The notes beneath the pieces were generated by a model that had not been told where the DNA came from, ran no database searches, and saw only the letters and a program-made list of their open reading frames with translations. 64,000 nt of DNA from Eledone cirrhosa (taxonomy: Eukaryota). Numbering within the stretch: the stretch's first letter is position 1; each line of letters starts with the position of its first letter. Shown here piece by piece: positions 17,801 through 59,629 of the stretch. Position numbers and translations under genes: made by a program. The stretch is taken from positions 288,610,001 through 288,674,000 of the forward strand of contig OZ024742.1 of assembly GCA_964016885.1 (NCBI GenBank), given 5' to 3'.

Positions 17801-19299
17801 AGTCACAGATACACACACACACACACTATAGTAGGTGGTGTACCAACAGTCACATATACACACACACACTATAGTAAGTGGTGTACCAACAGTCACAGAC
17901 ACACACATACACTACAGTAGGTGGTGTACCAACAGTCACAGATACACACACTATAGTAGGTGGTGTACCAACAGTCTCAGACACACACACACACTATAGT
18001 AAGTGGTGTACCAACAGTCACAGACACACACATACACTACAGTAGGTGGTGTACCAACAGTCACAGATATACACACACACACACTATAGTAGGTGGTGTA
18101 CCAACAGTCACAGATACACACACACACACTATAGTAGGTGGTGTACCAACGGTCACAGACACACACACACACACACACACTATAGTTGGTGGTGTACCAA
18201 CAGTCACAGACACACACACACACTATAGTAGGTGGTGTACCAACAGTCACAGATACACACACACACACTATAGTAGGTGGTGTACCAACAGTCACAGACA
18301 CACACACACACTATAGTAGGTGGTGTACCAACAGTCACAGACACACACACACACTATAGTAGGTGGTGTACCAACAGTCACAGACACACACACACACTAT
18401 AGTAGGTGGTGTACCAACAGTCACAGACACACACACACACTATAGTAGGTGGTGTACCAACAGTCACAGATACACACACACTCACTATAGTAGGTGGTGT
18501 ACCAACAGTCACAGACACACACGCACACTATAGTAGGTGGTGTACCAACAGTCACAGATACACACACACACACTATAGTAGGTGGTGTACCAACAGTCAC
18601 AGATACACACACACACACTATAGTAGGTGGTGTACCAACAGTCACAGACACACACACACACACTATAGTAGGTGGTGTACCAACAGTCACAGACACACAC
18701 ACTATAGTAGGTGGTGTACCAACAGTCACAGATACACACACACACACACTATAGTAGGTGGTGTACCAACACTCACAGACACACACACACACTATAGTAG
18801 GTGGTGTACCAACAGTCACAGACACACACACACACTATAGTAGGTGGTGTACCAACAGTCACAGACACACACACACACTATAGTAGGTGGTGTACCACCA
18901 ACAGTCACAGATACACACACACACACACTATAGTAGGTGGTGTACCAACAGTCACAGACACACACACACACACTATAGTAGGTGGTGTACCAACAGTCAC
19001 AGACACACACACACTATAGTAGGTGGTGTACCAACAGTCACAGACACACACATACACTATAGTAAGTGGTGTACCAACAGTCACAGACACACACATACAC
19101 TATAGTAAGTGGTGTACCAACAGTCACAGATACACACACACACACTATAGTAGGTGGTGTACCAACAGTCACAGACACACACATACACTATAGTAGGTGG
19201 TGTACCAACAGTCACAGACACACACATACACTATAGTAGGTGGTGTACCAACAGTCACAGATACACACACACACACTATAGTAGGTGGTGTACCAACAG

Positions 19300-25200: not shown

Positions 25201-25690
25201 TCACAGATACACACACACACACTATAGTAGGTGGTGTACCAACGGTCACAGACACACACACACACACTATAGTTGGTGGTGTTCCAACAGTCACAGACAC
25301 ACACATACACTATAGTAGGTGGTGTACCAACAGTCACAGACACACACATACACTATAGTAAGTGGTGTACCAACAGTCACAGATACACACACACACTATA
25401 GTAGGTGGTGTACCAACAGTCACAGACACACACACACACTATAGTAGGTGGTGTACCAACAGTCACAGATACACACACACACTATAGTAGGTGGTGTACC
25501 AACAGTCACAGACACACACACACTATAGTAAGTGGTGTACCAACAGTCACAGATACACACACACACACGATAGTAGGTGGTGTACCAACAGTCACAGACA
25601 CACACACACACACTATAGTAGGTGGTGTACCAACAGTCACAGACACACACATAGACTATAGTAAGTGGTGTACCAACAGTCACAGATACA
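19300..25690. repeat. 2,272 bp higher-order repeat of satellite A, about 2.8 tandem copies
   Basis: The rare variant CTAGAG occurs at 20,236, 22,508 and 24,780. Identical ORF-track entries occur at 19,719/21,991/24,263 and at 20,376/22,648/24,920. Boundaries are approximate. Confidence 0.9.
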
Positions 25691-37100: not shown

Positions 37101-40100
37101 ATAGTAGGTGGTATACCAACAGTCACAGACACACACACACACACTATAGTAGGTGGTGTACCAACAGTCACAAACACACACACACACTATAGTAGGTGGT
37201 GTACCAACAGTCACAGACACACACACACACTATAGTAGGTGGTGTACCACCAACAGTCACAGATACACACACACACACTATAGTAGGTGGTGTACCAACA
37301 GTCACAGACACACACACACACACTATAGTAGGTGGTGTACCAGCAGTCACAGACAGACACACACACACTATAGTAGGTAGTGTACCAACAGTCAGAGACA
37401 CACACATACACTATAGTAAGTGGTGTACCAACAGTCACAGATACACACACACACACTATAGTAGGTGGTGTACCAACAGTCACAGACACACACACACACA
37501 CTATAGTAGGTGGTGTACCAACAGTCACAGACACACACATACACTATAGTAAGTGGTGTACCAACAGTCACAGATACACACACACACACTATAGTAGGTG
37601 GTGTACCAACAGTCACAGACACACACATACACTATAGTAGGTGGTGTACCAACAGTCACAGACACACACACATACACTATAGTAGGTGGTGTACCAACAG
37701 TCACAGATACACACACACACTATAGTAAGTGGTGTACCAACAGTCACAGACACACACATACACTACAGTAGGTGGTGTACCAACAGTCACAGATACACAC
37801 ACTATAGTAGGTGGTGTACCAACAGTCTCAGACACACACACACACTATAGTAAGTGGTGTACCAACAGTCACAGACACACACATACACTACAGTAGGTGG
37901 TGTACCAACAGTCACAGATATACACACACATACACTATAGTAGGTGGTGTACCAACAGTCACAGATACACACACCCACTATAGTAGGTGGTGTACCAACG
38001 GTCACAGACACACACACACACACACAATATAGTTGGTGGTGTACCAACAGTCACAGACACACACACACACTATAGTAGGTGGTGTACCAACAGTCACAGA
38101 TACACACACACACACTATAGTAGGTGGTGTACCAACAGTCACAGACACACACACACACTATAGTAGGTGGTGTACCAACAGTCACAGACACACACACACA
38201 CTATAGTAGGTGGTGTACCAACAGTCACAGACACACACACACACTATAGTAGGTGGTGTACCAACAGTCACAGACACACACACACACACTATAGTAGGTG
38301 GTGTACCAACAGTCAGAGATACACACACACACACTATAGTAGGTGGTGTACCAACAGTCACAGACACACACGCACACTATAGTAGGTGGTGTACCAACAG
38401 TCACAGACACACACGCACACTATAGTAGGTGGTGTACCAACAGTCACAGACACACACACACACTATAGTAGGTGGTGTACCAACAGTCACAGATACACAC
38501 ACACACACTATAGTAGGTGGTGTACCAACAGTCACAGACACACACGCACACTATAGTAAGTGGTGTACCAACAGTCACAGACACACACACACACACTATA
38601 GTAGGTGGTGTACCAACAGTCACAGACACACACATAGACTATAGTAAGTGGTGTACCAACAGTCACAGATACACACACACACACTATAGTAGGTGGTGTA
38701 CCAACAGTCACAGACACACACGCACACTATAGTAGGTGGTGTACCAACAGTCACAGATACACACACACACACTATAGTAGGTGGTGTACCAACAGTCACA
38801 GATACACACACACACTATAGTAAGTGGTGTACCAACAGTCACAGACACACACATACACTACAGTAGGTGGTGTACCAACAGTCACAGATACACACACACA
38901 CACTATAGTAGGTGGTGTACCAACAGTCACAGATACACACACACACACTATAGTAGGTGGTGTACCAACAGTCACAGATACACACACACACACTATAGTA
39001 GGTGGTGTACCAACAGTCACAGACACACACACACACACTATAGTAGGTGGTGTACCAACAGTCACAGACACACACACTATAGTAGGTGGTGTACCAACAG
39101 TCACAGATACACACACACACACTATAGTAGGTGGTGTACCAACAGTCACAGACACACACACACACTATAGTAGGTGGTGTACCAACAGTCACAGACACAC
39201 ACACACACTATAGTAGGTGGTGTACCACCAACAGTCACAGATACACACACACACACTATAGTAGGTGGTGTACCAACAGTCACAGACACACACACACACA
39301 CTATAGTAGGTGGTGTACCAGCAGTCACAGACACACACACACACACTATAGTAGGTAGTGTACCAACAGTCAGAGACACACACATACACTATAGTAAGTG
39401 GTGTACCAACAGTCACAGATACACACACACACACTATAGTAGGTGGTGTACCAACAGTCACAGACACACACACACACACTATAGTAGGTGGTGTACCAAC
39501 AGTCACAGACACACACATACACTTTAGTAAGTGGTGTACCAACAGTCACAGATACACACACACACACTATAGTAGGTGGTGTACCAACAGTCACAGACAC
39601 ACACATACACTATAGTAGGTGGTGTACCAACAGTCACAGACACACACACATACACTATAGTAGGTGGTGTACCAACAGTCACAGATACACACACACACAC
39701 ACTATAGTAGGTGGTGTACCAACAGTCACAGATACACACACACACTATAGTAAGTGGTGTACCAACAGTCACAGACACACACATACACTACAGTAGGTGG
39801 TGTACCAACAGTCACAGATACACACACTATAGTAGGTGGTGTACCAACAGTCTCAGACACACACACACACTATAGTAAGTGGTGTACCAACAGTCACAGA
39901 CACACACATACACTACAGTAGGTGGTGTACCAACAGTCACAGATATACACACACACACACTATAGTAGGTGGTGTACCAACAGTCACAGATACACACACA
40001 CACACTATAGTAGGTGGTGTACCAACGGTCACAGACACACACACACACACTATAGTTGGTGGTGTACCAACAGTCACAGACACACACACACACTATAGTA

Positions 40101-43100
40101 GGTGGTGTACCAACAGTCACAGATACACACACACACACTATAGTAGGTGGTGTACCAACAGTCACAGACACACACACACACACTATAGTAGGTGGTGTAC
40201 CAACAGTCACAAACACACACACACACTATAGTAGGTGGTGTACCAACAGTCACAGACACACACACACACTATAGTAGGTGGTGTACCACCAACAGTCACA
40301 GATACACACACACACTATAGTAGGTGGTGTACCAACAGTCACAGACACACACACACACACTATAGTAGGTGGTGTACCAGCAGTCACAGACACACACACA
40401 CACACTATAGTAGGTAGTGTACCAACAGTCAGAGACACACACATACACTATAGTAAGTGGTGTACCAACAGTCACAGATACACACACACACACTATAGTA
40501 GGTGGTGTACCAACAGTCACAGACACACACACACACACTATAGTAGGTGGTGTAACAACAGTCACAGACACACACATACACTATAGTAAGTGGTGTACCA
40601 ACAGTCACAGATACACACACACACACTATAGTAGGTGGTGTACCAACAGTCACAGACACACACATACACTATAGTAGGTGGTGTACCAACAGTCACAGAC
40701 ACACACACATACACTATAGTAGGTGGTGTACCAACAGTCACAGATACACACACACACTATAGTAAGTGGTGTACCAACAGTCACAGACACACACATACAC
40801 TACAGTAGGTGGTGTACCAACAGTCACAGATACACACACTATAGTAGGTGGTGTACCAACAGTCTCAGACACACACACACACTATAGTAAGTGGTGTACC
40901 AACAGTCACAGACACACACATACACTACAGTAGGTGGTGTACCAACAGTCACAGATATACACACACATACACTATAGTAGGTGGTGTACCAACAGTCACA
41001 GATACACACACCCACTATAGTAGGTGGTGTACCAACGGTCACAGACACACACGCACACACACACTATAGTTGGTGGTGTACCAACAGTCACACACACACA
41101 CTATAGTAGGTGGTGTACCAACAGTCACAGATACACACACACACACTATAGTAGGTGGTGTACCAACAGTCACAGACACACACACACGCTATAGTAGGTG
41201 GTGTACCAACAGTCACAGACACACACACACACTATAGTAGGTGGTGTACCAACAGTCACAGACACACACACACACTATAGTAGGTGGTGTACCAACAGTC
41301 ACAGACACACACACACACTATAGTAGGTGGTGTACCAACAGTCACAGATACACACACACACACTATAGTAGGTGGTGTACCAACAGTCACAGACACACAC
41401 GCACACTATAGTAGGTGGTGTACCAACAGTCACAGACACACACGCACACTATAGTAGGTGGTGTACCAACAGTCACAGACACACACACACACTATAGTAG
41501 GTGGTGTACCAACAGTCACAGATACACACACACACACTATAGTAGGTGGTGTACCAACAGTCACAGACACACACACACACACTATAGTAGGTGGTGTACC
41601 AACAGTCACAGACACACACACACACACACTATAGTAGGTGGTGTACCAACAGTCACAGACACACACACACACACTATAGTAGGTGGTGTACCAACAGTCA
41701 CAGACACACACATACACTATAGTAAGTGGTGTACCAACAGTCACAGACACACACACACTATAGTAGGTGGTGTACCAACAGTCACAGATACACACACACA
41801 CACTATAGTAGGTGGTGTACCAACAGTCACAGACACACACACACACTATAGTAGGTGGTGTACCAACAGTCACGCACACTACAGCAGGTGGTGTACTAAC
41901 ACACAGACGCACTACAGTAGGTGGTGTACTAACACACAGACGCACTACAGTAGGTGGTGTACTAACACACACACACACTACAGTAGGTGGTGTACCAACA
42001 GTCACACACACACACACACACTATAGTAGGTGGTGTACCAGCAGTCACAGACACACACACACACACTATAGTAGGTAGTGTACCAACAGTCAGAGACACA
42101 CACATACACTATAGTAAGTGGTGTACCAACAGTCACAGATACACACACACACACTATAGTAGGTGGTGTACCAACAGTCACAGACACACACACACACACT
42201 ATAGTAGGTGGTGTACCAACAGTCACAGACACACACATACACTATAGTAAGTGGTGTACCAACAGTCACAGATACACACACACACACTATAGTAGGTGGT
42301 GTACCAACAGTCACAGACACACACATACACTATAGTAGGTGGTGTACCAACAGTCACAGACACACACACATACACTATAGTAGGTGGTGTACCAACAGTC
42401 ACAGATACACACACACACACACTATAGTAGGTGGTGTACCAACAGTCACAGATACACACACACACTATAGTAAGTGGTGTACCAACAGTCACAGACACAC
42501 ACATACACTACAGTTGGTGGTGTACCAACAGTCACAGATACACACACTATAGTAGGTGGTGTACCAACAGTCTCAGACACACACACACACTATAGTAAGT
42601 GGTGTACCAACAGTCACAGACACACACATACACTACAGTAGGTGGTGTACCAACAGTCACAGATATACACACACACACACACTATAGTAGGTGGTGTACC
42701 AACAGTCACAGATACACACACACACACTATAGTAGGTGGTGTACCAACGGTCACAGACACACACACACACACTATAGTTGGTGGTGTACCAACAGTCACA
42801 GACACACACACACACTATAGTAGGTGGTGTACCAACAGTCACAGATACACACACACACACTATAGTAGGTGGTGTACCAACAGTCACAGACACACACACA
42901 CACTATAGTAGGTGGTGTACCAACAGTCACAGACACACACACACACTATAGTAGGTGGTGTACCAACAGTCACAGACACACACACACACTATAGTAGGTG
43001 GTGTACCACCAACAGTCACAGATACACACACACACACTATAGTAGGTGGTGTACCAACAGTCACAGACACACACACACACACTATAGTAGGTGGTGTACC

Positions 43101-44800
43101 AGCAGTCACAGACACACACACACACACTATAGTAGGTAGTGTACCAACAGTCAGAGACACACACATACACTATAGTAAGTGGTGTACCAACAGTCACAGA
43201 TACACACACACACACTATAGTAGGTGGTGTACCAACAGTCACAGACACACACACACACACTATAGTAGGTGGTGTACCAACAGTCACAGACACACACATA
43301 CACTATAGTAAGTGGTGTACCAACAGTCACAGATACACACACACACACTATAGTAGGTGGTGTACCAACAGTCACAGACACACACATACACTATAGTAGG
43401 TGGTGTACCAACAGTCACAGACACACACACATACACTATAGTAGGTGGTGTACCAACAGTCACAGATACACACACACACACTATAGTAGGTGGTGTACCA
43501 ACAGTCACAGACACACACACACTATAGTAGGTGGTGTACCAACAGTCACAAACACACACACACACTATAGTAGGTGGTGTACCAACAGTCACAGACACAC
43601 ACACACACTATAGTAGGTGGTGTACCACCAACAGTCACAGATACACACACACACACTATAGTAGGTGGTGTACCAACAGTCACAGACACACACACACACA
43701 CTATAGTAGGTGGTGTACCAGCAGTCACAGACAGACACACACACACTATAGTAGGTAGTGTACCAACAGTCAGAGACACACACATACACTATAGTAAGTG
43801 GTGTACCAACAGTCACAGATACACACACACACACTATAGTAGGTGGTGTACCAACAGTCACAGACACACACACACACACTATAGTAGGTGGTGTACCAAC
43901 AGTCACAGACACACACATACACTATAGTAAGTGGTGTACCAACAGTCACAGATACACACACACACACTATAGTAGGTGGTGTACCAACAGTCACAGACAC
44001 ACACATACACTATAGTAGGTGGTGTACCAACAGTCACAGACACACACACATACACTATAGTAGGTGGTGTACCAACAGTCACAGATACACACACACACTA
44101 TAGTAAGTGGTGTACCAACAGTCACAGACACACACATACACTACAGTAGGTGGTGTACCAACAGTCACAGATACACACACTATAGTAGGTGGTGTACCAA
44201 CAGTCTCAGACACACACACACACTATAGTAAGTGGTGTACCAACAGTCACAGACACACACATACACTACAGTAGGTGGTGTACCAACAGTCACAGATATA
44301 CACACACATACACTATAGTAGGTGGTGTACCAACAGTCACAGATACACACACCCACTATAGTAGGTGGTGTACCAACGGTCACAGACACACACACACACA
44401 CACAATATAGTTGGTGGTGTACCAACAGTCACAGACACACACACACACTATAGTAGGTGGTGTACCAACAGTCACAGATACACACACACACACTATAGTA
44501 GGTGGTGTACCAACAGTCACAGACACACACACACACTATAGTAGGTGGTGTACCAACAGTCACAGACACACACACACACTATAGTAGGTGGTGTACCAAC
44601 AGTCACAGACACACACACACACTATAGTAGGTGGTGTACCAACAGTCACAGACACACACACACACACTATAGTAGGTGGTGTACCAACAGTCACAGATAC
44701 ACACACACACACTATAGTAGGTGGTGTACCAACAGTCACAGACACACACGCACACTATAGTAGGTGGTGTACCAACAGTCACAGACACACACGCACACTA
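31200..44800. repeat. About 7.2 kb/6.4 kb tandem segmental duplication within satellite A
   Basis: Matching ORF-track entries and rare variants sit at offsets 7,214-7,216 (31,565/38,781; 32,620/39,836; 34,596/41,812; 35,383/42,599), then at 6,378-6,382 (36,530/42,912; 37,811/44,189). The difference equals an 834 bp internal duplication (35,383/36,217) present only in the first copy. Confidence 0.8.
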
Positions 44801-47800
44801 TAGTAGGTGGTGTACCAACAGTCACAGACACACACACACACTATAGTAGGTGGTGTACCAACAGTCACAGATACACACACACACACTATAGTAGGTGGTG
44901 TACCAACAGTCACAGACACACACACACACACTATAGTAGGTGGTGTACCAACAGTCACAGACACACACACACACACTATAGTAGGTGGTGTACCAACAGT
45001 CACAGACACACACACACACACTATAGTAGGTGGTGTACCAACAGTCACAGACACACACATACACTATAGTAAGTGGTGTACCAACAGTCACAGACACACA
45101 CACACTATAGTAGGTGGTGTACCAACAGTCACAGATACACACACACACACTATAGTAGGTGGTGTACCAACAGTCACAGACACACACACACACTATAGTA
45201 GGTGGTGTACCAACAGTCACGCACACTACAGCAGGTGGTGTACTAACACACAGACGCACTACAGTAGGTGGTGTACTAACACACAGACGCACTACAGTAG
45301 GTGGTGTACTAACACACACACACACTACAGTAGGTGGTGTACCAACAGTCACACACACACACACACACTATAGTAGGTGGTGTACCAGCAGTCACAGACA
45401 CACACACACACACTATAGTAGGTAGTGTACCAACAGTCAGAGACACACACATACACTATAGTAAGTGGTGTACCAACAGTCACAGATACACACACACACA
45501 CTATAGTAGGTGGTGTACCAACAGTCACAGACACACACACACACACTATAGTAGGTGGTGTACCAACAGTCACAGACACACACATACACTATAGTAAGTG
45601 GTGTACCAACAGTCACAGATACACACACACACACTATAGTAGGTGGTGTGCCAACAGTCACAGACACACACATACACTATAGTAGGTGGTGTACCAACAG
45701 TCACAGACTCACACACATACACTATAGTAGGTGGTGTACCAACAGTCACAGATACACACACACACACACTATAGTAGGTGGTGTACCAACAGTCACAGAT
45801 ACACACACACACTATAGTAAGTGGTGTACCAACAGTCACAGACACACACATACACTACAGTAGGTGGTATACCAACAGTCACAGATACACACACTATAGT
45901 AGGTGGTGTACCAACAGTCTCAGACACACACACACACTATAGTAAGTGGTGTACCAACAGTCACAGACACACACATACACTACAGTAGGTGGTGTACCAA
46001 CAGTCACAGATATACACACACACACACACTATAGTAGGTGGTGTACCAACAGTCACAGATACACACACACACACTATAGTAGGTGGTGTACCAACGGTCA
46101 CAGACACACACACACACACTATAGTTGGTGGTGTACCAACAGTCACAGACACACACACACACTATAGTAGGTGGTGTATCAACAGTCACAGATACACACA
46201 CACACACTATAGTAGGTGGTGTACCAACAGTCACAGACACACACACACACTATAGTAGGTGGTGTACCAACAGTCACAGACACACACACACACTATAGTA
46301 GGTGGTGTACCAACAGTCACAGACACACACACACACTATAGTAGGTGGTGTACCACCAACAGTCACAGATACACACACACACACTATAGTAGGTGGTGTA
46401 CCAACAGTCACAGACACACACACACACACTATAGTAGGTGGTGTACCAGCAGTCACAGACACACACACACACACTATAGTAGGTAGTGTACCAACAGTCA
46501 GAGACACACACATACACTATAGTAAGTGGTGTACCAACAGTCACAGATACACACACACACACTATAGTAGGTGGTGTACCAACAGTCACAGACACACACA
46601 CACACACTATAGTAGGTGGTGTACCAACAGTCACAGACACACACATACACTATAGTAAGTGGTGTACCAACAGTCACAGATACACACACACACACTACAG
46701 TAGGTGGTGTACCAACAGTCACAGACACACACATACACTATAGTAGGTGGTGTACCAACAGTCACAGACACACACACATACACTATAGTAGGTGGTGTAC
46801 CAACAGTCACAGATACACACACACACACACTATAGTAGGTGGTGTACCAACAGTCACAGATACACACACACACTATAGTAAGTGGTGTACCAACAGTCAC
46901 AGACACACACATACACTACAGTAGGTGGTGTACCAACAGTCACAGATACACACACTATAGTAGGTGGTGTACCAACAGTCTCAGACACACACACACACTA
47001 TAGTAAGTGGTGTACCAACAGTCACAGACACACACATACACTACAGTAGGTGGTGTACCAACAGTCACAGATATACACACACACACACACTATAGTAGGT
47101 GGTGTACCAACAGTCACAGATACACACACCCACTATAGTAGGTGGTGTACCAACGGTCACAGACACACACACACTATAGTTGGTGGTGTACCAACAGTCA
47201 CAGACACACACACACACTATAGTAGGTGGTGTACCAACAGTCACAGATACACACACACACACTATAGTAGGTGGTGTACCAACAGTCACAGACACACACA
47301 CACACTATAGTAGGTGGTGTACCAACAGTCACAGACACACACACACACTATAGTAGGTGGTGTACCAACAGTCACAGACACACACACACACTATAGTAGG
47401 TGGTGTACCAACAGTCACAGACACACACACACACTATAGTAGGTGGTGTACCAACAGTCACAGATACACACACACACACTATAGTAGGTGGTGTACCAAC
47501 AGTCACAGACACACACGCACACTATAGTAGGTGGTGTACCAACAGTCACAGACACACACGCACACTATAGTAGGTGGTGTACCAACAGTCACAGACACAC
47601 ACACACACTATAGTAGGTGGTGTACCAACAGTCACAGATACACACACACACACTATAGTAGGTGGTGTACCAACAGTCACAGACACACACACACACACTA
47701 TAGTAGGTGGTGTACCAACAGTCACAGACACACACACACACACTATAGTAGGTGGTGTACCAACAGTCACAGACACACACACACACACTATAGTAGGTGG

Positions 47801-47979
47801 TGTACCAACAGTCACAGACACACACATACACTATAGTAAGTGGTGTACCAACAGTCACAGACACACACACACTATAGTAGGTGGTGTACCAACAGTCACA
47901 GATACACACACACACACTATAGTAGGTGGTGTACCAACAGTCACAGACACACACACTATAGTAGGTGGTGTACCAACAG

Positions 47980-49519
47980 TCACGCACACTACAGCAGGTG
48001 GTGTACTAACACACAGACGCACTACAGTAGGTGGTGTACTAACACACAGACGCACTACAGTAGGTGGTGTACTAACACACATACACACTACAGTAGGTGG
48101 TGTACCAACAGTCACACACACACGCAGACACTACAGTAGGTGGTGTACCAACACACACACTAAAGTAGGTCCTGTACCAACATTCACACACACACTACAG
48201 TAGGTGGTGTACCAACACACACACTACAGTAGGTGGTGTACCAACACACACACACTACAGTAGGTGGTGTACCAACACACACACACACACACTACAGTAG
48301 GTGGTGTACCAACAGTCACACACACACACACACACACACTATAGTAGGTGGTGTACCAACAGTCACACACACACACACACACTACAGTAGGTGGTGTACC
48401 AACAGTCACACACACACACACACACACTACAGTAGGTGGTGTACCAACAGTCACACACACACACACTATAGTAGCTGGTGTACCAACACACACACTAAAG
48501 TAGGTCCTGTACCAACATTCACACACACACTACAGTAGGTGGTGTACCAACACACACACACACACACTACAGTAGGTGGTGTACCAACAGTCACACACAC
48601 ACACACACACACTATAGTAGGTGGTGTACCAACACACATACACACTACAGTAGGTGATGTACCAACAGTCACATACACACTACAGTAGGTGATGTACCAA
48701 CACACACTATAGTAGGTGGTGTACCAACACATACACACTACAGTAGGTGATGTACCAACAGTCACATACTCACTACAGTAGGTGATGTACCAACACACAC
48801 TATAGTAGGTGGTGTACCAACACATACACACTACAGTAGGTGATGTACCAACACACACACACACACCCACACACACTCTACAGTAGGTGGTGTACCAACA
48901 GTCACACACACTACAGTAGGTGGTGTACCAACACACACACACATTACAGTAGGTGGTCTACCAACACACACACACACTACAGTAGGTCCTGTACCAACAC
49001 ACATGCAGACACTACAGTAGGTGGTGTACCAACACACACACACACACACTACAGTAGGTCCTGTACCAACACACACACACACTACAGTAGGTGGTGTACC
49101 AACACACACACACACACACACACTACAGTAGGTGGTGTACCAACAGTCACACACACACTACAGTAGGTGGTGTACCAACACACACACACACACACTACAG
49201 TATGTCCTGTACCATCACACACACTACAGTAGGTGGTGTACCAACACACACACTACAGTAGGTGGTGTACCAACACACACACGCACACTACAGTAGGTGG
49301 TGTACCAACACACATACGCTCTGCTGTAGGTGCTGTACCAACACACACACACACACTACAGTAGGTGCTGTACCAGCACACACGCAGACACTACAGTAGG
49401 TGCTGTACCAACACACATACGCACTGCTGTAGGTGCTGTACCAACACACACACACAGGAACTGAGCGAATACACACTCAGACACACTACAGTAAGTGTAC
49501 CAAAACACACACACACAAA
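47980..49519. repeat. Degenerate edge zone of satellite A with short CTACAGTAGGTGGTGTACCAA(CA)n monomers
   Basis: The AGTCACAGA segment is lost and substitutions accumulate (GGTCCTG, GGTGCTG, CTGCTGTAGG) towards the unique island. Confidence 0.9.
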
Positions 49520-49538
49520 CTGTAATATAGAACCATTA

Positions 49539-49566
49539 TTTAATCGATGTTCCTATTTATTGACAG
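49539..49566 (+). promoter_or_regulatory. 3' splice site: candidate branch point (TTTAAT), T-rich tract and CAG acceptor
   Basis: TTTAAT at 49,539-49,544 is followed by GTTCCTATTTATTGACAG ending at 49,566. There is no other AG after 49,530. Confidence 0.75.
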
Positions 49567-49716
49567 GAATATTTGCTACGTCCTAAATGTCCTGTGTTGA
49601 TTATATCATATGAGATGTTTGTACGAAATGTTAAGGACTTGGAAAAGCTGAATTTTGATTTGATCATCTGTGATGAGGGCCACCGTCTGAAGAACACATC
49701 AATTAAAACATCAACA
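49567..49716 (+). CDS. RAD54B: Internal coding exon (150 bp, phase 0/0) of a SNF2-family ATPase, RAD54 subfamily, best match RAD54B
   Basis: Flanked by ...TTGACAG and GTAAGT. My translation is EYLLRPKCPVLIISYEMFVRNVKDLEKLNFDLIICDEGHRLKNTSIKTST, with no stops and the Walker B/motif II DEGH. From recall, VLIISYEM...FDLxICDEGHRLKNxxIKT fits vertebrate RAD54B better than RAD54L (SYETF...GLVICDEGHRLKNSENQT) or ARIP4. The family is secure; the paralog call is less so. Confidence 0.88.
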
Positions 49717-49722
49717 GTAAGT
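49717..49722 (+). promoter_or_regulatory. 5' splice donor GTAAGT
   Basis: A consensus GTAAGT follows immediately after codon 50 (ACA) of the exon. Confidence 0.85.
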
Positions 49723-49732
49723 AAAATCCATT

Positions 49733-52700
49733 TGTGGGGGATATAATTGGTCTAGTGTGGGGATATAATTGGTCTACTGTGGGGATATAATTGGTCTAGT
49801 GTGGGGATATAATTGGTCTATTGTGGGGATATAATTGGTCTACTGTGGGGATATAATTGGTCTACTGTGGGGATATAATTGGTATAGTGTGGGGATATAA
49901 TTGGTCAAGTGTGGGGATATAATTGGTCTAGTGTGGGAATATAATTGGTCTACTGTAGGGATATAATTGGTCTACTGTGGGGATATAATTGGTTTAGTGT
50001 GGGGATATAATTGGTCTGCTGTGGCGATATAATTGGTCGAGTGTGGGGATATAATTGAACTGCTGTGGCGATATGATAGATCTTCTGTGGGAATATAATT
50101 GGTCGAGTGTGGGGATTTAATTGGTCTAGTGTGGGGATATAATTTGTCTACTGTGGGGAGATTATTGTTCTAGTGTGGGGATATAATTGGTCTAGTGTGG
50201 GGTATAATTTGTCTACTGTGGGGATATAATTGGTCTACTGTTGGGATATAATTTCTCTACTGTGGGGATATAATTGGTCTAGTGTGGGGTATAATTTGTC
50301 TACCGTGGGGATATAATTGGTCTACTGTGCGGATATTATTGGTCGAGTGGGGGGATATAATTTGTGTACTGTAGGGATATAATTGGTCTACTGTGGGGAT
50401 ATAATTGGTCGAGTGTGGGGATATAATTGGTCTACTGTTGGGATATAATTTGTCTACTGTGGGGAGATTATTGGTCTATTGTGGGGATATAATTGGTCTA
50501 CTGTGGGGATATAATTGGTCTACTGTAGGGATATAATTGGTCGAGTGTGGGGATTTAATTTGTCTACTGTGGGGATATAATTGGTCCACTGTGGCGATAG
50601 AATTGGTTGAGCGTGGGGATATAATTGGTCTACTGTGGGGGTATAATTGGTCTAGTATGGGGATATAATTGGTCGAGTGTGGGGATATAATTGGTCTACT
50701 GTGGGGATATAATTGGTCTAGTATGGGGACATAATTCGTCGAGTGTGGGGGTATAATTGATCTCCTGTGGGGATGTAATTGGTCGAGTGTGGGGATATAA
50801 TTGGTCTAGTGTGGGAATATAATTCGTCTAGTGTGGGGATATAATTGGTCAACTCTGGGGATATAATTGGTCGAGTGTGGGGATATAATTGGTCTAGTAT
50901 GGGGACATAATTGGTCGTGTGAGGGGATATAATTGGTCTACCGTGGGGATATTATTGGTCTACTGTGGGGATATAATTGGTCTAGTATGGGCACATAATT
51001 CGTCGAGTGTGGGGATATAATTGGTCGAGTATGGGGATATAATTTGTCTACTGCGGGGATGTAATTGGTCTAGTGTGGGTGTATAATTGGTCTACTGTGG
51101 GGATATAATTGGCCTACTGTGGGGATATAATTGGTCTACTGTGGGGATATAATTGGTCTACCTTTGTGGTATAATTGGTCTAATGTGAGGATATAATTTG
51201 TGTACTGTAGGGATATAATTGGTCTACTGTGGGGATATAATTGGTCGAGTGTGGGGATATAATTGGTCTACTTTTGGGATATAATTTGTCTACTGTGGGG
51301 ATATAATTGGTCTAGTGTGGGCATATAATTGGTCTACTGTGGCGATATAAATGGTCTACTGTGGGGATTTAATTGGTTTAGTGTGGGGACACAATTGGTC
51401 TATTGTGGGGATATAATTTGACTACTGTGGGGAGATTATTGGTCTATTGTGGGGATATAATTGGTCTACTGTGGGGATATAATTGGTCTACCTTTGTGGT
51501 ATAATTGGTCTAATGTGAGGATATAATTGGTCTACTGTGGGGATTTAATTGCTCTACAGTGGGGATATAATTGGTCTACCTTTGTGGTATAATTGGTCCA
51601 ATGTGAGGATATAATTGGTCTACTGTGGGGATTTAATTGCTCTACAGTGGGGATATAATTGGTCGAGTGTGGGGATATAATTGGTCTAGTGTGGGGATAT
51701 AATTGGTCTATTGTGGGGGTATAATTGGTCTACTGTGGGGATTTAATTGCTCTAATGTGGGGATTTAATTGGTTTAGTGTGGGGACATAATTGGTCTAGT
51801 GTGGGGATATAATTTGTCTAGTATGGGGACATAATTCGTCGAGTGTGGGGGTATAATTGTTCTATTGTGGGGATGTAATTGGTCGAGTGTGGGGATTTAA
51901 TTTGTCTACTGTGGGGATATAATTGGTCTACTGTGGGGATAGAATTGGTCTGCTGTGGGGATATAATTGGTCGAGTGTGGGGATATAATTGGTCTACTGT
52001 GGGGATATAATTAGTCTAGTATGGGGACATAATTCGTCGAGTGTGGGGGTATAATTGGTCTATTGTGGGGATGTAATTGGTAGAGCGTGGGGGTTATAAT
52101 TGGTCTGCTGTGGGGATATAATTGGCCTACTGTGGGGATATAATTGGTCGAGTATGGGGCTATATTTGTTCTACTGTGGGGATATAATTGGTCTACAGTG
52201 GGGGTATAATTGGTCTGCTGTGGGGATATAATTGGTCTACTGTTGGGATATAATTGGTTTATTATGGGGACATAATTGGTCGAGTGTGGGGATATAATTG
52301 GGCTACTGCAACGATATAATTGGTCGAGTGTGGGGATATAATTGGTCTACTGTGGGGATATAATTGGTCTACTGTGGGGATATAATTGGTCAAGTGTGAA
52401 GATATAATTGGTCTACCGTGGGGAAAAAATTGTTCTACTGCGCGGATATAATTAGTCTACTGTAGGGATATCATTTTTCTAGTGTAGGGATTTAATTACT
52501 CTATTGTGGGGATATAAGGGGTCTACTGTGGTGCGACAATTGGTCTTCTGTGGGGATATAATTGGTCTAGTGTGGGGATATAATTGGTCTACTGTGGGGA
52601 TATAATTGGTTTCCTGTCGGGATATAATTGGTCTAGTGTCGGGATATAATTGGTCTAGTGTCGGGATATAATTGGTCTCCAATGGGGATATAATTGGTCG

Positions 52701-53605
52701 AGTGTAGGGATATAATTGGTCTAGTGTGGGTATATAATTCGTCTAGTGTGGTGATATAATTGGTCAACTCTGGGGATATAATTGGTCTAGTATGGGGATA
52801 TAATTGGTCGAGTGTTGGGATATAATTGGTCTAGTATGGGGACATAATTTGTCGAGTGAGGGAATATAATTGGTCTACTGTTTGGGATATTATTGGTCTA
52901 CTGTGGGGATATAATTGGTCTAGTATGGGCACATAATTCGTCGAGTGTGGGGATATAATTTGTCTACTGTAGTGATATAATTGGTCTACTGTGGGGATAT
53001 AATTGGTCTAGTGTGGGGATATAATTGGTCTAGTGTGGGGATATAATTGGTCTACTGTGAGGATATAATTGGTCTACTGTGGGGATTTAATTGGTCTAGT
53101 GTGGGGATATAACTTGTCTACTGTGGGGATTTAATTGGTTTAGTGTGGGGATATAATTGGTCTACTGTTCAGATATAATTGGTCTACTGTGGGGATATAA
53201 TTGGCCTACTGTGGCGATATAATTGGTCTACTGCTTAGATGCAATTGGTCTACTGTGGCGATATAATTGGTCTACTGCTTAGATGTAATTAGTCTACTGT
53301 GGGGATGTAATTGGTTTAGTGTGGAGATATAATTGGTCTAGTGTGGGGATATAATTGTTCTACTGTGGGGATATAATTGGTCTAGTGTGGGGATATAATT
53401 GGTCTACTGTGGGATTATAATTGGTCTACTGTGGGGATATAAGTGGTCGAGTGTGGGGATATAATTGGTCTGCTGTGGCGATATAATTGGTCGAGTGTGG
53501 GGATATAATTGATCTACTGTGGCGATATAATAGATCTACTGTGGCAATATAATTGGTCGACTGTGGGGATTTAATTGGTCTAGTGTGGGGATATAATTGG
53601 TCTAC
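49733..53605. repeat. Satellite B, 22 bp monomer GGTCTACTGTGGGGATATAATT, segment 1
   Basis: ATATAATTGG recurs every 22 bp (49,741, 49,763, ...). Common variants are GGTCTAGT and GGTCGAGT. It is visibly more diverged than satellite A. Confidence 0.98.
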
Positions 53606-54169
53606 TATAGAGATTTAGCAGGGTAGAAGTAATGAAGGTCGTTAGTTGACAGTGTGGTAAAATGATAGTATCTTCGTTGGATTGTCTTGTCGACATAGAC
53701 GTGAGGGAAGGTCCCTCGACCTATTTACCATCTTTGTATTTACAATATTCCTTTTGTCAGGTCGCCAATTCCAGCAGCATGGATTATAGATGTTATTGAG
53801 ACACGAGTAACACAATAATGATTTCAACAGCAGAAATCAGAGATGAAATGTATGTTTATTTTTGATGTAGCACAAACAATGTTTGTTAACTTATATGGTT
53901 GAAGTTACATATAAAAAGAGGTTACAAAAGGGAATGTGCCATTGCGCCGGAGAGCCGGCGAGGCTAGGGGTGCAAAATCTCACCGTTACATTGTGCGTGC
54001 TGCTGGTTCGAAGTTCCTGGTACAAGAGAGAGATTCTTCAAATCTTCGCGGGGAATTTATTCCTCAGGGTGCGTAGGGATACATCCTCTTCTACTGGCGC
54101 TGATTGGCTGAACTGAGCCAAATCACGCACAGAGAATGTATGTGAGCCCGCGGAATGTAGGTCACTACA
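53606..54169 (-). mobile_element. About 564 bp non-satellite insertion, possibly a solo or partial LTR
   Basis: Boundaries with satellite B are sharp. The minus strand begins TGTAGTGA, and the termini TATAGAGA/TCACTACA are a 6/8 inverted match. The minus strand has CAGCCAATCA (54,101-54,110), AATAAA (53,855-53,860) and a PBS-like TGGCGACCTGACA (53,755-53,767). There is no clear target-site duplication. Confidence 0.45.
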
Positions 54170-57100
54170 GGGATATAAATGGTCTACTGTGGGGATATAA
54201 TTAGTTTAGTGTGGGGACATAATTGGTCTAGTGTGGGGATATAATTTGTCTACTGTGGGGAGATTATTGTTCTAGTGTGGGGATATAATTGGTCTAGAGT
54301 GGGGTATAATTTGTCTACTGTGGGGATATAATTGGTCTCTGTGGGGATATAGTTGGTCTACTATGGGTATATAATTGGTCTGCTGTGGCGATATAATTGG
54401 TCGAGTGTGGGGATATAATTGATCTGCTGTGGCGATATAATAGATCTTCTGTGGGAATATAATTGGTCGAGTGTGGGGATATAATTGGTCTGCTGTGGCG
54501 ATATAATTGGTCGAGTGTGGGGATATAATTGATCTGCTGTGGCGATATGATAGATCTTCTGTGGGAATATAATTGGTCGAGTGTGGGGATATAATTTGTC
54601 TACTGTGGGGAGATTATTGTTCTAGTGTGGGGATATAATTGGTCTAGTGTGGGATATAATTTGTCTACTGTGGGGATATAATTGGTCTACTGTGGGGATA
54701 TTATTGGTCGAGTGTGGGGATATAATTGGTCGAGTGTGGGGATATAATTGGTCTACTGTTGGGATATTATTTGTCTACTGTGGGGATATAATTGGTCTAG
54801 TGTGGGGATATAATTGGTCTACTGTGGGGATTTAATTTGTCTAGTGTGGGCATATAATTGGTCTACTGTGGCGATATAAATGGTCAACCTTTGGGGTATA
54901 ATTGGTCTAATGTGAGGATATAATTGGTCTACTGTGGGGATTTAATTGCTCTACAGTGGGAATATAATTGGTCTACTGTTGGGATATAATTGGTCGAGTG
55001 TGGGGATATAATTGGTCTATTGTGGGGGTATAATTGGTCTACTGTGGGGATTTAATTGCTCTAATGTGGGGATTTAATTGGTTTAGTGTGGGGACATAAT
55101 TGGTCTAGTGTGGGGATATAATTTGTCTACTGTGGGGAGATTATTGGTCTATTGTGGGGATATAATTGGTCTACTGTGGGGATATAATTGGTCTACTGTA
55201 GGGATATAATTGGTCGAGTGTGGGGATTTAATTTGTCTACTGTGGAGATATAATTGGTCTACTGTGGGGATATAATTGGTCTACCGTGGGGATATAATTG
55301 GTCGAGTGTGGGGATATAATTGGTCTACTGTGGGGATATAATTGGTCTACTGTGGGGATATAATTGGTCTAGTATGGGGACATAATTCGTCGAGTGTGGG
55401 GGTATAATTGGTCTATTGCGGGGATGTAATTGGTCGAGTGTGGGGGTTATAATTGGTCTGCTGTGGGGATATAATTGGCCTACTGTGGGGATATAATTGG
55501 TCCAGTGTGGGGGTATAATTGGTCTACTGTGGGGATATAATTTGTGTAGTATGGTGACATAATTGGTCAAGTGTCGCGATATGATTGGTCGAGTGTGGGG
55601 CTATATTTGTTCTACTGTGGGGATATAATTGGTCTACAGTGGGGGTATAATTGGTCTGCTGTGGGGATATAATTGGTCGAGTGTAGGGGTATAATTGGTC
55701 TACTGTGGGGATATAATTGGTCTTCTGTGGAGATATAATCGGTCTAGTATGGGGACATAATTGGTCGAGTGTGGGGACATAATTGGTCTACTGTGGGGAT
55801 ATAATTGGTCTACTGCAACGATATAATTGGTCGAGTGTGGGGATATAATTGGTCAAGTATGGGCATATAATTGGTCTACTGTGGGGATAGTATTGGTCAA
55901 GTGTGAAGATATAATTGGTCTACTGTGGGGATGAAATTGTTCTACTGCGCGGATATAATTAGTCTACTGTAGGGATATAATTTTTCTAATGTGGAGATTT
56001 AATTAGTCTATTGTGGGGATGTAATTGGTCTAGTGTTGGGATATAAGGGGTCTACTGTGGGGCGACAATTGGTCTTCTGTGGGGATATATTTGGTCTACT
56101 GTGGGGATCTAATTGGTCTACTGTGGGGATATAATTGGCCTCCTGTCGGGATATAATTGGTCTAGTGTTGGGATATTATTGGTCTACTGCTGAGATGTAA
56201 TTGGTCTACTGAGGGGATATAATTGGTCTACTGTGGGGGTATAATTGATCTCCTGTGGGGATATAATTGGTCGAGTATGGGGATATAATTGGTCTAGTGT
56301 GGGAATATAATTCGTCTAGTGTGGGGATATAATTGGTCAACTCTGGGGATATAATTGGTGGAGTGTGGGGATATAATTGGTCTAGTATGGGGATATAATT
56401 GGTCGAGTGTTGGGATATAATTGGTCTAGTATGGGGACATAATTGGTCTACTGTTTGGGATATTCTTGGTCTACTGTGGGGATATAATTGGTCTAGTATG
56501 GGCACATAATTCGTCGAGTGTGGGGATATAATTGGTCGAGTATGGGGATATAATTGGTCTACTGCGGGGATGTAATTGGTCGTGTGTGGGTGTATAATTG
56601 GTCTACTGTGGGGATATAATTGGCCTACTGTGGGGATATTATTGGTCGAGTGTGGGGATATGATTTGTCTACTGTAGGGATATAATTGGTCTACCGTGGG
56701 GATATAATTGGTCGAGTGTGGGGATATAATTGGTCTACTGTGGGGATAGAATTGGTTGAGTGTGGGGATATAATTGGTCTACTGTGGGGATATAATTGGT
56801 CTAGTATGGGGACATAATTCGTCGAGTGTGGGGGTATAATTGGTCTATTGCGGGGATGTAATTGGTCGAGTGTGGGGGTTATAATTGGTCTGCTGTGGGG
56901 ATATAATTGGCCTACTGTGGGGATATAATTGGTCGAGTGTGGGGGTATAATTGGTCTACTGTGGGGATATAATTGGTCTAGTATGGGGACATAATTGGTC
57001 AAGCGTCGCGATATGATTGGTCGAGTGTGGGGCCATATTTGTTCTACTGTGGGGATATAATTGGTCTACAGTGGGGGTATAATTGGTCGAGTGTAGAGGT

Positions 57101-59311
57101 ATAATTGGTCTTCTGTGGAGATATAATTGGTCTAGTATGGGGACATAATTGGTCGAGTGTGGGGATATAATTGGTCTACTGTGGGGATATAATTGGTCTA
57201 CTGCAACGATATAATTGGTCGAGTGTGGGGATATAATTGGTCAAGTATGGGCATATAATTGGTCTACTGTGGGGATATTATTAGTCTAGTGTGGGGATAT
57301 AATTGGTCTACTGTGGGGATATTATTGGTCTACTGCGCGGATATAATTAGTCTACTGTAGTGATATAATTTTTCTAGTGTGGAGATTTAATTAGTCAATT
57401 GTGGGGATGTAATTGGTCTAGTGTGGGGATATAAGGGGTCTACTGTGGGGCGACAATTGGTCTTCTGTGGGGATATATTTGGTCTACTGTGGGGATATAA
57501 TTGGTCTACTGTGGGGATATAATTGGCCTCCTGTCGGGATATAATTGGTCTAGTGTTGGGATATTATTGGTCTACTGCTGAGATGTAATTGGTCTACTTA
57601 GGGGATATAATTGGTCTACTGTGGGGGTATAATTGATCTCCTGTGGGGATATAATTGGTCGAGTGTGGGGATATAATTGGTCTAGTGTGGGAATATAATT
57701 CGTCTAGTGTGGGGATATAATTGGTCAACTCTGGGGATATAATTGGTCTAGTATGGGCACATAATTCGTCGAGTGTGCGGATATAATTGGTCTACTGCGG
57801 GGATGTAATTGGTCATGTGTGGGTGTATAATTGGTCTACTGTGGGGATATGATTGGTCTACTGTGGGGATATTATTGGTCGAGTTTGGGGATATAATTTG
57901 TCTACTGTAGGGATATAATTGGTCTACTGTGGGGATATAATTGGTCGAGTGTGGGGATATAATTGGTCGAGTGTGGGGATATAATTGGTCTACTGTGAGG
58001 ATATAATTGGTCTACTGTGGGGATTTAATTGGTCTAGTGTGGGGATATAATTTGTCTACTGTGGGGATTTAATTGGTTTAGTGTGGGGACATAATTGGTT
58101 TAGTGTGGAGATATAATTGGTCTACTGTGGGGATATAATTGTTCTACTGTGGGGATTTAATTGCTCTACTGTGGGGATATAATTCTTCTACTGTGGGGAT
58201 ATAATTGGTCTAGTGTGGGGTATAATTGATCTACTGTGGGGATTTAATTGCCCTACTGTGGGGATATAATTGGTCTACTGTGGGATTATAATTGGTCTAC
58301 TGTGGGGATATAATTGGTCGAGTGTGAGGATTTAATTGGTCTAGTGTGGGGGCATAATTGGTTTACTGTTGGGATATAATTGGTCTAGTGTGGGGATATA
58401 ATTGCTCTACTGTGGGGATATAATTGGTCTAGTATGTGTACATAATTGGTAGAGACTGGGCATATAATTGGTCTATTGTGGGGATATAATTGGTGTACTG
58501 TGGGGATATAATTGGTCTAGTGTGGGGATATAATTGGTCTACTGGTGGGATATAACTGGTCTACTGTGGGGAAATAATTTGTCTAGTGTGGGGTATAATT
58601 TGTCTACTGTGGGGATATAATTGGATTAGTTTGGGATATAATTGGTCTACTGTGGGGATATAAATGGTCTAGTGTGGGGATATAATTGGTTGAATGTGTG
58701 GGGATATAATTGGTCGAGTGTGGCGATTTAATTGGTCTACTGTGGGGATATAAATGATCTACTGTGGGGATATAATTGGTCTAATTTGGGGAAATAATTG
58801 GTCTAGTGTGGGAATATAATTGGTCTACTGTGGAATATTCTTGGTCTAATGTGGGGATATAATTGGTCTAGTGTGGGGATGTAATTGGTCCACTGTGGGG
58901 ATATAATTGGTCTACTGTGGGGTTTTAATTGGTCTAGTGTGGGTATATAATTGGTCTACTGTGGGGATTTAATTGCTCTGCTGTGGGGATATAATTGGTC
59001 TACTGTGGGGATATAATTGGTCTACTGTGGGGGATATAATTTCCCTACTGTGGGGATATAATTTGTCTACTGTGGGGATATAATTGGTCTACTGTGGGGA
59101 TTTAATTGCTCTACTGTGGGGATATAATTGGTCGAGTGTGGGGATTTAATCGGTCTAGTGTGGCGGCATAATTGGTCTAGTGTTGGGATATCATTGGTCT
59201 ACTGTGGGGATATAATTGCTCTACTGTGGGGATATAATTGGTCTACTGTGGGGATATAATTGGTCTAGTGTGGGGATATAGTTGGTTGAGTGTGGGGATA
59301 TAATTGGTCTA
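54170..59311. repeat. Satellite B, segment 2, including a 1,388 bp tandem duplication
   Basis: The 22 bp periodicity continues. Rare markers CTGCAACG occur at 55,813/57,201 and AAGGGGTCTAC at 56,045/57,433. Confidence 0.98.
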
Positions 59312-59331
59312 ATCATCATCATCATCATCAT
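59312..59331 (-). repeat. (GAT)n 3' tail of the RTE element
   Basis: The plus strand reads ATCATCATCATCATCATCAT and abuts satellite B directly. Short tandem-repeat tails are typical of RTE elements. Confidence 0.85.
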
Positions 59332-59629
59332 AACCGGTTTACGTCCGTTCTTCCACGCTATCATGGGTTAGAAGGGTTGTCCTGTTGTGGGCAGTGTCTG
59401 GTCGGCTGACCATGCCTTGCTCATACAGGAACTGATTTGGCTTGATTTCTACAGCTGGATGCCCTTCCTAACACCAACCTCATTTACAGTGAGTGCTGGG
59501 TGCTTTTTCGTGGTGCCTACACGTCCACTTTACCGCGTGGGCTGGGTGCTTTTTTGCCGTGGCACCTCCACGACCACCTTGCGGTGGGGGCATATAGTCT
59601 ATATGCTTCAGCTTGTACCCATGGGAGGT

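What the first reader, a model, noticed from the sequence alone, without database searches (positions are those of the whole stretch)
49520..49732. Intact RAD54B-like exon isolated between two giant satellite arrays (satellite-driven intron gigantism)
Seen: a ~213 bp island holds a stop-free 150 bp exon with canonical splice sites encoding the catalytic DEGH motif. I found no other host exon, in particular not the expected next motif III (LTGTP), so the flanking introns would be over 49.5 kb and over 14.2 kb and almost pure satellite. Established: satellite-filled giant introns are known from Drosophila Y fertility genes (kl-3, kl-5), where they need dedicated RNA-binding factors. Inference: a conserved homologous-recombination gene is transcribed through tens of kb of satellite, with a different satellite in each intron, and gene predictors could easily miss it. 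This is the strongest candidate here for an undescribed system.
Basis: partly seen in the sequence, partly recalled or inferred. Interest (0 to 1): 0.85.

Follow-up and report, generated by a model that had tools for sequence, protein, structure and literature searches.

The report
Octopod genes with satellite-filled giant introns
In an octopus-like genome, an intact exon of the DNA-repair gene RAD54B is spliced out from between a 121-kb and a 55-kb intron, each filled with a repeat found nowhere else in the assembly; a second gene shows the same layout and a third likely does, so this is likely a genome-wide tendency of small repeats to run away inside genes rather than a special control system for RAD54B.

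Summary
Observation confirmed and extended. Window 49,567-49,716 is exon 14 of an intact 25-exon RAD54B gene (925 aa, 85-86% identical to octopod RAD54B), the only copy found. Intron 13 is 121,487 bp as assembled (one 200-N gap) and is pure 43-bp CA-rich repeat. Intron 14 is 55,128 bp of 22-bp repeat with two insertions. The other 22 introns have a median of 845 bp. Every exact pattern match to both repeats lies in this locus. A 2,920-nt contig from a public run joins exons 13, 14 and 15 exactly, so the orphan-fragment reading fails. RAD54B is not special: myosin IX has a 145-kb intron and nine further arrays, each different; another myosin locus holds a 38-kb array grown inside one SINE-like copy; 8 of 40 evenly spaced 10-kb samples are wholly tandem array. 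Best reading: local runaway amplification of small intronic minisatellites, tolerated by ordinary splicing. The Drosophila Y-loop criteria I could test (megabase size, over 99% simple satellite) are not met, and nothing tested supports a dedicated system. My searches found no description of this in cephalopods.

The parts
1..49456 (+). 3' part of the 43-bp CA-rich tandem array that fills RAD54B intron 13 (whole array G000:C3:288,538,161-288,659,456, about 2,800 units, no insertion, one 200-N gap outside the window)
   Evidence: 1863 of 1863 exact pattern matches in the assembly lie in this locus
49457..49566 (+). Degenerate array edge and unique 3' end of intron 13 with pyrimidine tract and AG acceptor
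   Evidence: acceptor score 11.8, mid-range among the gene's 24 acceptors
49567..49716 (+). RAD54B exon 14 of 25; 50 aa, phase 0/0, with the DEGH motif
   Evidence: spliced contig of run X4 covers exactly these bases and continues into exons 13 and 15
49717..49736 (+). GTAAGT donor and about 20 unique bases at the start of intron 14
49737..64000 (+). 5' part of the 22-bp G/T-rich tandem array that fills intron 14 (whole array to about C3:288,714,343, about 2,400 units)
   Evidence: 75 of 75 exact pattern matches in the assembly lie in this intron
53600..54169 (.). About 0.6-kb high-copy dispersed repeat inserted in the 22-bp array (not classified; 5' edge approximate)
   Evidence: contig depth 6,000-45,000 in runs X1-X3
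59312..61780 (-). Truncated, broken LINE retrotransposon inserted in the 22-bp array; its 3' end carries a short 48-bp tandem repeat
   Evidence: reverse-transcriptase-like ORF pieces of 314, 206 and 85 aa; the LINE (RTE-like) label is recalled from the motifs and comes from no call

Best explanation
RAD54B exon 14 is a normal, spliced exon of an intact gene whose two flanking introns are filled by locus-private 43-bp and 22-bp arrays, which likely grew in place from small intronic minisatellites by repeated unequal exchange and are likely tolerated by ordinary splicing, as part of a likely genome-wide tendency. Shown: gene structure, splicing across both introns, privacy of the arrays within the assembly, kilobase-scale internal duplications, degenerate edges around homogeneous cores, and similar arrays in other genes. 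Inferred step 1, seeding: many introns carry a 100-500 bp degenerate minisatellite, some derived from a piece of a dispersed element and some with no parent found. Inferred step 2, amplification: a few are amplified a hundredfold or more by unequal crossing-over or related recombination-based copying. Inferred step 3, tolerance: the arrays persist because they offer almost no acceptor sites or polyadenylation hexamers on the sense strand and leave the real splice sites intact, so exon definition still works.
For: Gene: 25 exons, 24 GT-AG introns, 2,778-nt CDS giving 925 aa plus stop. Splicing: the X4 contig's 30-nt flanks match the end of exon 13 and the start of exon 15 exactly. Seeds: 9 of the 22 small RAD54B introns hold a tandem array of 100 bp or more (counted). 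Amplification: 71% of intron 13 lies in exact duplications of 300 bp or more, blocks up to 4 kb; intron 14 has a 9.46-kb segment duplication. Core mismatches are 0.3-0.9 per 28 nt inside the intron 13 array and 4.4 in its last bin. Generality: myosin IX has a 145-kb intron with an 81-kb 40-bp array (386 of 386 matches local), and tandem repeats cover 72% of 285 kb. At a C6 myosin locus a 37.7-kb array is the head of one SINE-like copy repeated about 838 times, with the rest of the element following directly. 8 of 40 evenly spaced 10-kb samples are wholly one array, and they share no 13-mers with each other or with the RAD54B arrays. Tolerance: intron 13 has 0 strong acceptors and 0 AATAAA/ATTAAA in 121 kb; intron 14's satellite has 1 and 2 in 52 kb.
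Against: The mechanism of amplification is read from sequence pattern only. No parent element was found for either RAD54B unit (one search compared units only with each other and with the two inserts in the window; some searches were exact-match searches). Lack of acceptors and polyadenylation hexamers is expected for most short units by chance. Intron 13 carries 329 donor-like ATA|GTAAGT variants, so it is not free of splice signals. The genome-wide figure mixes kinds: 3 of the 8 full arrays span at least 410 kb and one is telomere-derived, and I did not test whether any of the 8 lies in a gene. Only 2 of 19 multi-hit myosin loci showed an array of 30 kb or more, and none of 14 other SNF2 loci had a gap above about 30 kb between matched exons. 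X4 is a different sample from X1-X3 and is not on record as RNA.
Confidence: 0.78

Rival explanations
1. A regulated intron-gigantism system like Drosophila kl-3/kl-5: the satellites are functional platforms that bind dedicated RNA-binding proteins and time RAD54B expression, for example in the germline.
For: The gene is spliced across the arrays. Only the two introns around the DEGH exon are giant. The units carry CA-runs and G-runs, which are known hnRNP L and hnRNP F/H motifs in vertebrates (recalled, no call), and intron 13 has 329 donor-like sites.
Against: The introns are 121 and 55 kb rather than megabases, and arrays are about 85% of the gene (compare PMC6508621 abstract). Unrelated genes show the same layout with unrelated units. 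The arrays look young and unstable.
Confidence: 0.08
2. Same origin, but purifying selection actively filters which units can expand inside genes, removing those with sense-strand polyadenylation signals or acceptors.
For: Among 42 array families in gene bodies, 4 carried AATAAA/ATTAAA on the antisense strand only and 0 on the sense strand only. Intron 14 has 2 sense against 141 antisense hexamers; the myosin IX 40-bp array has 0 against 20.
Against: The sign test gives p = 0.125. Two myosin IX arrays lean the other way at low counts (4/0 and 2/0). Within intron 14 the double variant that makes ATTAAA occurs 2 times against about 1.7 expected from single-variant counts. Copies are not independent.
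Confidence: 0.3
3. The intron sizes are partly an assembly artefact (arrays over-expanded or mis-joined).
For: A 200-N gap lies inside the intron 13 array at C3:288,590,701. Exact multi-kb duplications exist in both arrays. No read or contig spans either array.
Against: Intron 14 has no gap. Contigs of three runs (X1-X3, one sample) run from the 43-bp edge through the exon into the 22-bp repeat. Units vary along the arrays. Those runs may be the source of the assembly, so they are not independent.
Confidence: 0.1
4. The exon is an orphan duplicated fragment stranded in satellite.
For: No other exon lies in the window.
Against: 24 further exons are collinear on the same strand and give one open frame only with this exon. 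The spliced contig includes it. No second copy was found (one search used a stricter first look).
Confidence: 0.01

Closest known systems
Drosophila Y-loop genes kl-3 and kl-5 (PMC6508621, abstract and outline seen; PMC11207136, passages seen)
   Same: Small exons separated by transcribed introns made of tandem repeat; mature mRNA is produced.
   Different: There the introns are megabases of simple satellite, over 99% of the locus, on the Y, with dedicated RNA-binding proteins. Here they are 55-145 kb, with 22-48 bp private units, in DNA-repair and motor-protein genes on long chromosomes; no evidence on tissue or factors.
Transposon-derived minisatellite expansion in frog extended subtelomeres (PMC10794172, passages seen)
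   Same: Arrays grown from a roughly 50-bp piece of a SINE or LINE, attributed to unequal crossing-over; that paper gives 10.67% of X. tropicalis chromosomes in tandem arrays.
   Different: The word 'intron' does not occur in that paper's main text. Here single arrays reach 38-121 kb inside single introns. RAD54B lies 90 Mb from the nearest end of C3, whereas both myosin cases lie within 3 Mb of a chromosome end.
Locus-specific minisatellites (VNTRs) in introns (search listing only; size range recalled)
   Same: Unit length 10-100 bp, single locus, degenerate edges.
   Different: The arrays here are about 40-120 kb, far above typical VNTR length (recalled); length polymorphism was not tested.
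Large vertebrate introns such as those of dystrophin (PMC11207136, passages seen)
   Same: Introns over 100 kb are spliced.
   Different: Intron 13 here is one tandem unit from end to end with no transposon insertion.
RAD54B (SNF2 family; Argonauta hians and Octopus sinensis RAD54B)
   Same: 85-86% identity over the full length; intact reading frame.
   Different: Nothing unusual in the protein; intron sizes in the relatives could not be obtained.

Membership tests
RAD54B orthologue | Best matches are RAD54B over the full length | tested here: met
   Exon 92% to Argonauta RAD54B-like; 925-aa model 85-86% to P0002 and P0005
RAD54B orthologue | Distinct from RAD54L, which is present separately | tested here: met
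   The C6 gene scores 995 bits against zebrafish Rad54 (1z3i), against 538 for octopus RAD54B
RAD54B orthologue | Intact frame and spliced transcript | tested here: met
RAD54B orthologue | dN/dS below 1 | not testable with these tools
   No coding DNA of relatives was available
Drosophila Y-loop intron gigantism | Megabase-sized introns | tested here: not met
   121,487 and 55,128 bp as assembled; intron 13 has a gap of unknown true size
Drosophila Y-loop intron gigantism | Simple satellite makes up over 99% of the locus | tested here: not met
   About 173 of 204 kb (85%), units of 43 and 22 bp
Drosophila Y-loop intron gigantism | Satellite introns are transcribed | tested here: inconclusive
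   Implied by cis-splicing across them. One 65-nt contig of the 43-bp repeat in X4 at depth 2 could be pre-mRNA or DNA carry-over
Drosophila Y-loop intron gigantism | Germline-restricted expression and dedicated RNA-binding proteins | not testable with these tools
   Tissue of X4 is not given; no protein-RNA data
Locus-specific minisatellite (VNTR) | Unit of 10-100 bp in head-to-tail array | tested here: met
Locus-specific minisatellite (VNTR) | Confined to one locus | tested here: met
   1863 of 1863 and 75 of 75 exact matches in the assembly; diverged relatives were not searched genome-wide
Locus-specific minisatellite (VNTR) | Copy number varies between alleles | not testable with these tools
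   Only one assembly is held
Transposon-derived, subtelomeric minisatellite expansion (frog type) | Unit derives from part of a dispersed element | tested here: inconclusive
   Met for the C6 45-bp array and for 6 of 105 array units matching the LINE 3' repeat; no parent found for the two RAD54B giants
Transposon-derived, subtelomeric minisatellite expansion (frog type) | Located in terminal chromosome regions | tested here: not met
   RAD54B lies at 288.6 of 378.9 Mb; the two myosin cases lie within 3 Mb of an end

The most novel reading that the evidence does not exclude
This octopod genome converts ordinary introns of ordinary genes, probably a thousand or more (rough extrapolation from 2 of 19 myosin loci), into 30-150 kb arrays that are each private to one intron, and splices them without a special programme. 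Only units without sense-strand polyadenylation signals or acceptors survive expansion. That would be a satellite-driven route to intron and genome expansion not reported for cephalopods in the papers I could search, and a natural set of allelic reporters for how intron length alone affects transcription and splicing.
Probability: 0.3. Interest if true: 0.7.

Novelty: new variant of a known kind. Interest (0 to 1): 0.47.

Why it matters
The cephalopod genome papers I could check attribute genome size to transposons and larger introns or set simple repeats aside (PMC6279123, PMC8967140, passages). In this assembly about 40% of sampled bases are tandem repeat and about 21% lie in arrays of 5 kb or more, and some sit inside conserved genes, one unit per intron. 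If that holds genome-wide it changes the account of how octopod genes and genomes grow. It would also mean short-read assemblies and aligners with intron caps lose such exons, and it offers many independent arrays in which to test whether splicing and polyadenylation signals constrain satellite evolution. RAD54B itself is an ordinary intact gene.

Tried and rejected
No RNA holder was listed by the run search; the spliced evidence came from laying an unlabelled run. Rfam found 0 families in window 47,500-64,000. No YAG|GTRAG recursive-splicing motif was found in either giant intron. The satellites do not hide coding micro-exons in the one transcript seen, because exons 13, 14 and 15 join directly. 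The 53,600-54,169 island was considered as a host exon and rejected: it is high-copy and absent from the spliced contig. A whole-genome search with full-length myosin IX gave no answer twice, so its exons were mapped by tblastn on fetched stretches; C3:890,001-920,000 was not fetched and residues 308-326 were not placed. Nine of the 11 myosin loci whose gaps I sampled showed no array of 30 kb or more in the 10-kb spots taken. Dynein heavy-chain hits gave neighbouring-exon gaps under 3 kb. Tests for selection against polyadenylation signals were inconclusive. Earlier scan notes held nothing on this genome; the eight notes returned concern micro-exon or repeated-exon arrays in other genomes and do not bear on this. 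Literature searches and term searches in PMC10700109, PMC9068888, PMC8967140, PMC9635652, PMC13652810 and PMC6279123 (main-text passages only, supplements not read) found no description of satellite-filled introns in cephalopods. Supplementary repeat tables of those papers may hold tandem-repeat totals.

Full report
The observation. Window 49,567-49,716 translates without a stop to 50 aa containing DEGH, is bounded by AG and GTAAGT and matches Pfam SNF2-rel_dom. Its best matches are octopod RAD54B proteins: Argonauta hians 92% and Octopus sinensis 86%. The organism is therefore an octopod by protein similarity; I did not identify it further. A 43-bp array lies upstream and a 22-bp array downstream. 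The downstream array is interrupted by a roughly 0.6-kb high-copy repeat and a broken LINE.

The gene. The window is G000:C3:288,610,001-288,674,000 in a 3.0-Gb assembly. A full-length RAD54B query gave collinear plus-strand matches from 288,523,516 to 288,727,263. After fetching the locus I placed 25 exons with 24 GT-AG introns; they give 2,778 nt, 925 aa and one terminal stop, 85-86% identical to the Argonauta and O. sinensis proteins. The focal exon is exon 14. Intron 13 is 121,487 bp with one 200-N gap, intron 14 is 55,128 bp with none, and the other 22 introns have a median of 845 bp. The only other close match in the genome is a single-ORF gene on C6 that is RAD54L. One search ran with a stricter first look, so weak matches may be missing.

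Splicing. No run was listed as RNA. Run X4 nevertheless holds a 2,920-nt contig, depth 20, that matches exactly 49,567-49,716 with no difference. Its 30-nt flanks match the last bases of exon 13 (288,538,050-079, followed by GTGAGT) and the first of exon 15 (288,714,845-874, preceded by CAG). The exon starts at contig position 1,223 against CDS position 1,216, which fits a nearly full-length mRNA. Runs X1-X3 (one sample) show the unspliced form, with contigs running from the 43-bp edge through the exon into the 22-bp repeat. Limits: one contig, one study, tissue unknown, and X4 is a different sample whose array lengths are unknown.

The arrays. All 1863 exact matches of a 27-nt pattern from the 43-bp unit and all 75 of a 36-nt pattern from the 22-bp unit in the assembly lie in this locus. 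Intron 13 has 2,796 unit cores and no insertion; 71% of it lies in exact duplications of 300 bp or more. Its core differs by 0.3-0.9 bases per 28 inside and 4.4 in the last bin. Intron 14 is more diverged (79% matches), has a 9.46-kb segment duplication and fades into degenerate 23-bp units at its 3' end. Nine of the 22 small introns hold their own array of 100 bp or more (counted). Inference: small, old minisatellites are common seeds, and two of them underwent recent kilobase-scale unequal exchange.

Is RAD54B special? No. A myosin-head search gave 19 loci with two or more matches. I sampled gaps in the 11 with the larger spans; the other 8 span under 30 kb. Two had an array of 30 kb or more. 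Myosin IX on C3 has its first coding exon at 1,201,001-1,200,165 and the next at 1,054,936, an intron of about 145 kb with an 81-kb 40-bp array that is private (386 of 386). Nine more arrays of 3-41 kb with different units lie further into the gene, one more lies upstream of that exon, and tandem repeats cover 72% of 285 kb. At a C6 myosin locus a 37.7-kb 45-bp array lies between head-domain matches on one strand; the exons in between were not all mapped, so 'intronic' is likely rather than shown. That array is the head of one SINE-like copy repeated about 838 times: 108 of 441 pattern matches lie outside it, six fetched dispersed ones are single copies of a roughly 200-bp element, and the rest of the element follows the array directly (the SINE label is recalled). 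Against generality: none of 14 other multi-hit SNF2 loci had a gap above about 30 kb between matched exons, and dynein hits were under 3 kb apart.

Genome-wide sample. Forty 10-kb stretches taken every 72 Mb along the 27 long contigs had 40 +/- 6% tandem cover, 21 +/- 6% in arrays of 5 kb or more, and 8 of 40 were wholly one array. The 8 share no 13-mers with each other or with the RAD54B and myosin arrays. Probes at -300, -100, -30, +30 and +100 kb show 2 under 70 kb, 3 of at least 140 kb but not reaching -300 kb (one telomere-derived), and 3 spanning at least 410 kb, which may be centromeric. Whether any of the 8 lies in a gene was not tested. Of 105 array units from 92 sampled loci plus the two RAD54B units, one cluster of 8 included 6 that match the 48-bp repeat at the 3' end of the window's LINE; two members of that cluster are small arrays in RAD54B introns 3 and 10. 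The two giant RAD54B units matched neither insert.

How it is tolerated. With matrices built from the gene's own 24 introns (a small training set), intron 13's array has 0 strong acceptors and 0 AATAAA/ATTAAA on the sense strand in 121 kb, and intron 14's has 1 and 2 in 52 kb, against 0.22 and 1.9 per kb in the small introns. Intron 13 does carry 329 ATA|GTAAGT donor-like variants. No YAG|GTRAG motif was found. The real sites score within the gene's range. Absence of such motifs is expected for most short units, so I tested for strand bias. Among 42 array families in gene bodies (filtered for unit 15 bp or more, length 250 bp or more and complexity; a 9-kb 41-bp myosin IX array fell out), 0 were sense-only and 4 antisense-only, p = 0.125. 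Within intron 14 the ATTAAA-making variant occurs 2 times against about 1.7 expected. Filtering by selection remains a hint.

Comparison with what is known. Fingerhut et al. (PMC6508621, abstract and outline; PMC11207136, passages) define the Drosophila case by megabase introns of simple satellite, over 99% of the locus, and dedicated RNA-binding proteins. The first two features were tested and not met; the third cannot be tested here. This works like that case only in that repeat-filled introns are spliced. The closer parallel for origin is frog subtelomeric minisatellite expansion from SINE and LINE pieces by unequal crossing-over (PMC10794172, passages), which that text does not link to introns. 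Five cephalopod genome papers never use the word satellite in the main text and a sixth uses it once in methods (passages only, supplements unread). One notes that simple repeats were a significant portion and were discarded. Ten library searches found no report of satellite-filled introns in cephalopods; the library lacks most subscription papers.

Verdict. The feature is real and the gene is intact and spliced. It is best read as one clear instance of runaway, intron-private minisatellite growth in an unusually tandem-rich octopod genome, not as a new regulatory system. New variant of a known kind; interest 0.47, carried mainly by the genome-wide pattern rather than by RAD54B.

Noticed in passing
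L002:187-2406 (G000:C6, about 17,347,718-17,349,937, minus): RAD54L is encoded as one uninterrupted 739-aa ORF with no intron, in contrast to the 25-exon RAD54B; possibly a retrocopy that replaced the parent gene.
   Followed up: partly
L073, L149-L153 (G000:C3:184.54-184.95 Mb): A 16-bp telomere-like satellite of at least 140 kb with (TTAGGG)n-type repeat at the -100 kb and -300 kb probes, in the middle of C3; likely the scar of a chromosome fusion. C1-C4 are 379-443 Mb while the other long contigs are 22-136 Mb.
   Followed up: no
G000:C6:99,966,272-100,003,949 (L025, L101, L026, L102): A 37.7-kb array formed by about 838 copies of the 45-bp head of a single SINE-like element, with the element's body intact behind it.
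   Followed up: yes
G000:C3:886,096-1,201,001: Myosin IX: about 530 codons spread over more than 314 kb, with ten different arrays of 3-81 kb in its introns.
   Followed up: yes
window about 59,480-59,580: The LINE's 3' end carries a short 48-bp tandem repeat that resembles several arrays elsewhere, including one of at least 10 kb on C1 (L060).
   Followed up: partly
window 8,004-9,250 and 34,617, 35,717, 41,833, 45,180: Degenerate patches like the old 3' edge of the 43-bp array recur inside the homogeneous core, four of them as matching 181-bp blocks, a trace of long-range copying within the array.
   Followed up: partly
L065, L088, L097 and G000:C3 about 288,714,550: A shared 48-49 bp unit forms arrays on C2, C8 (at least 210 kb) and C24, and a similar single piece lies near the 3' end of intron 14; probably another dispersed element acting as seed.
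   Followed up: no
L172 (G000:C19:39,150,001): The 54-bp array on C19 switches orientation between the +30 kb and +100 kb probes.
   Followed up: no
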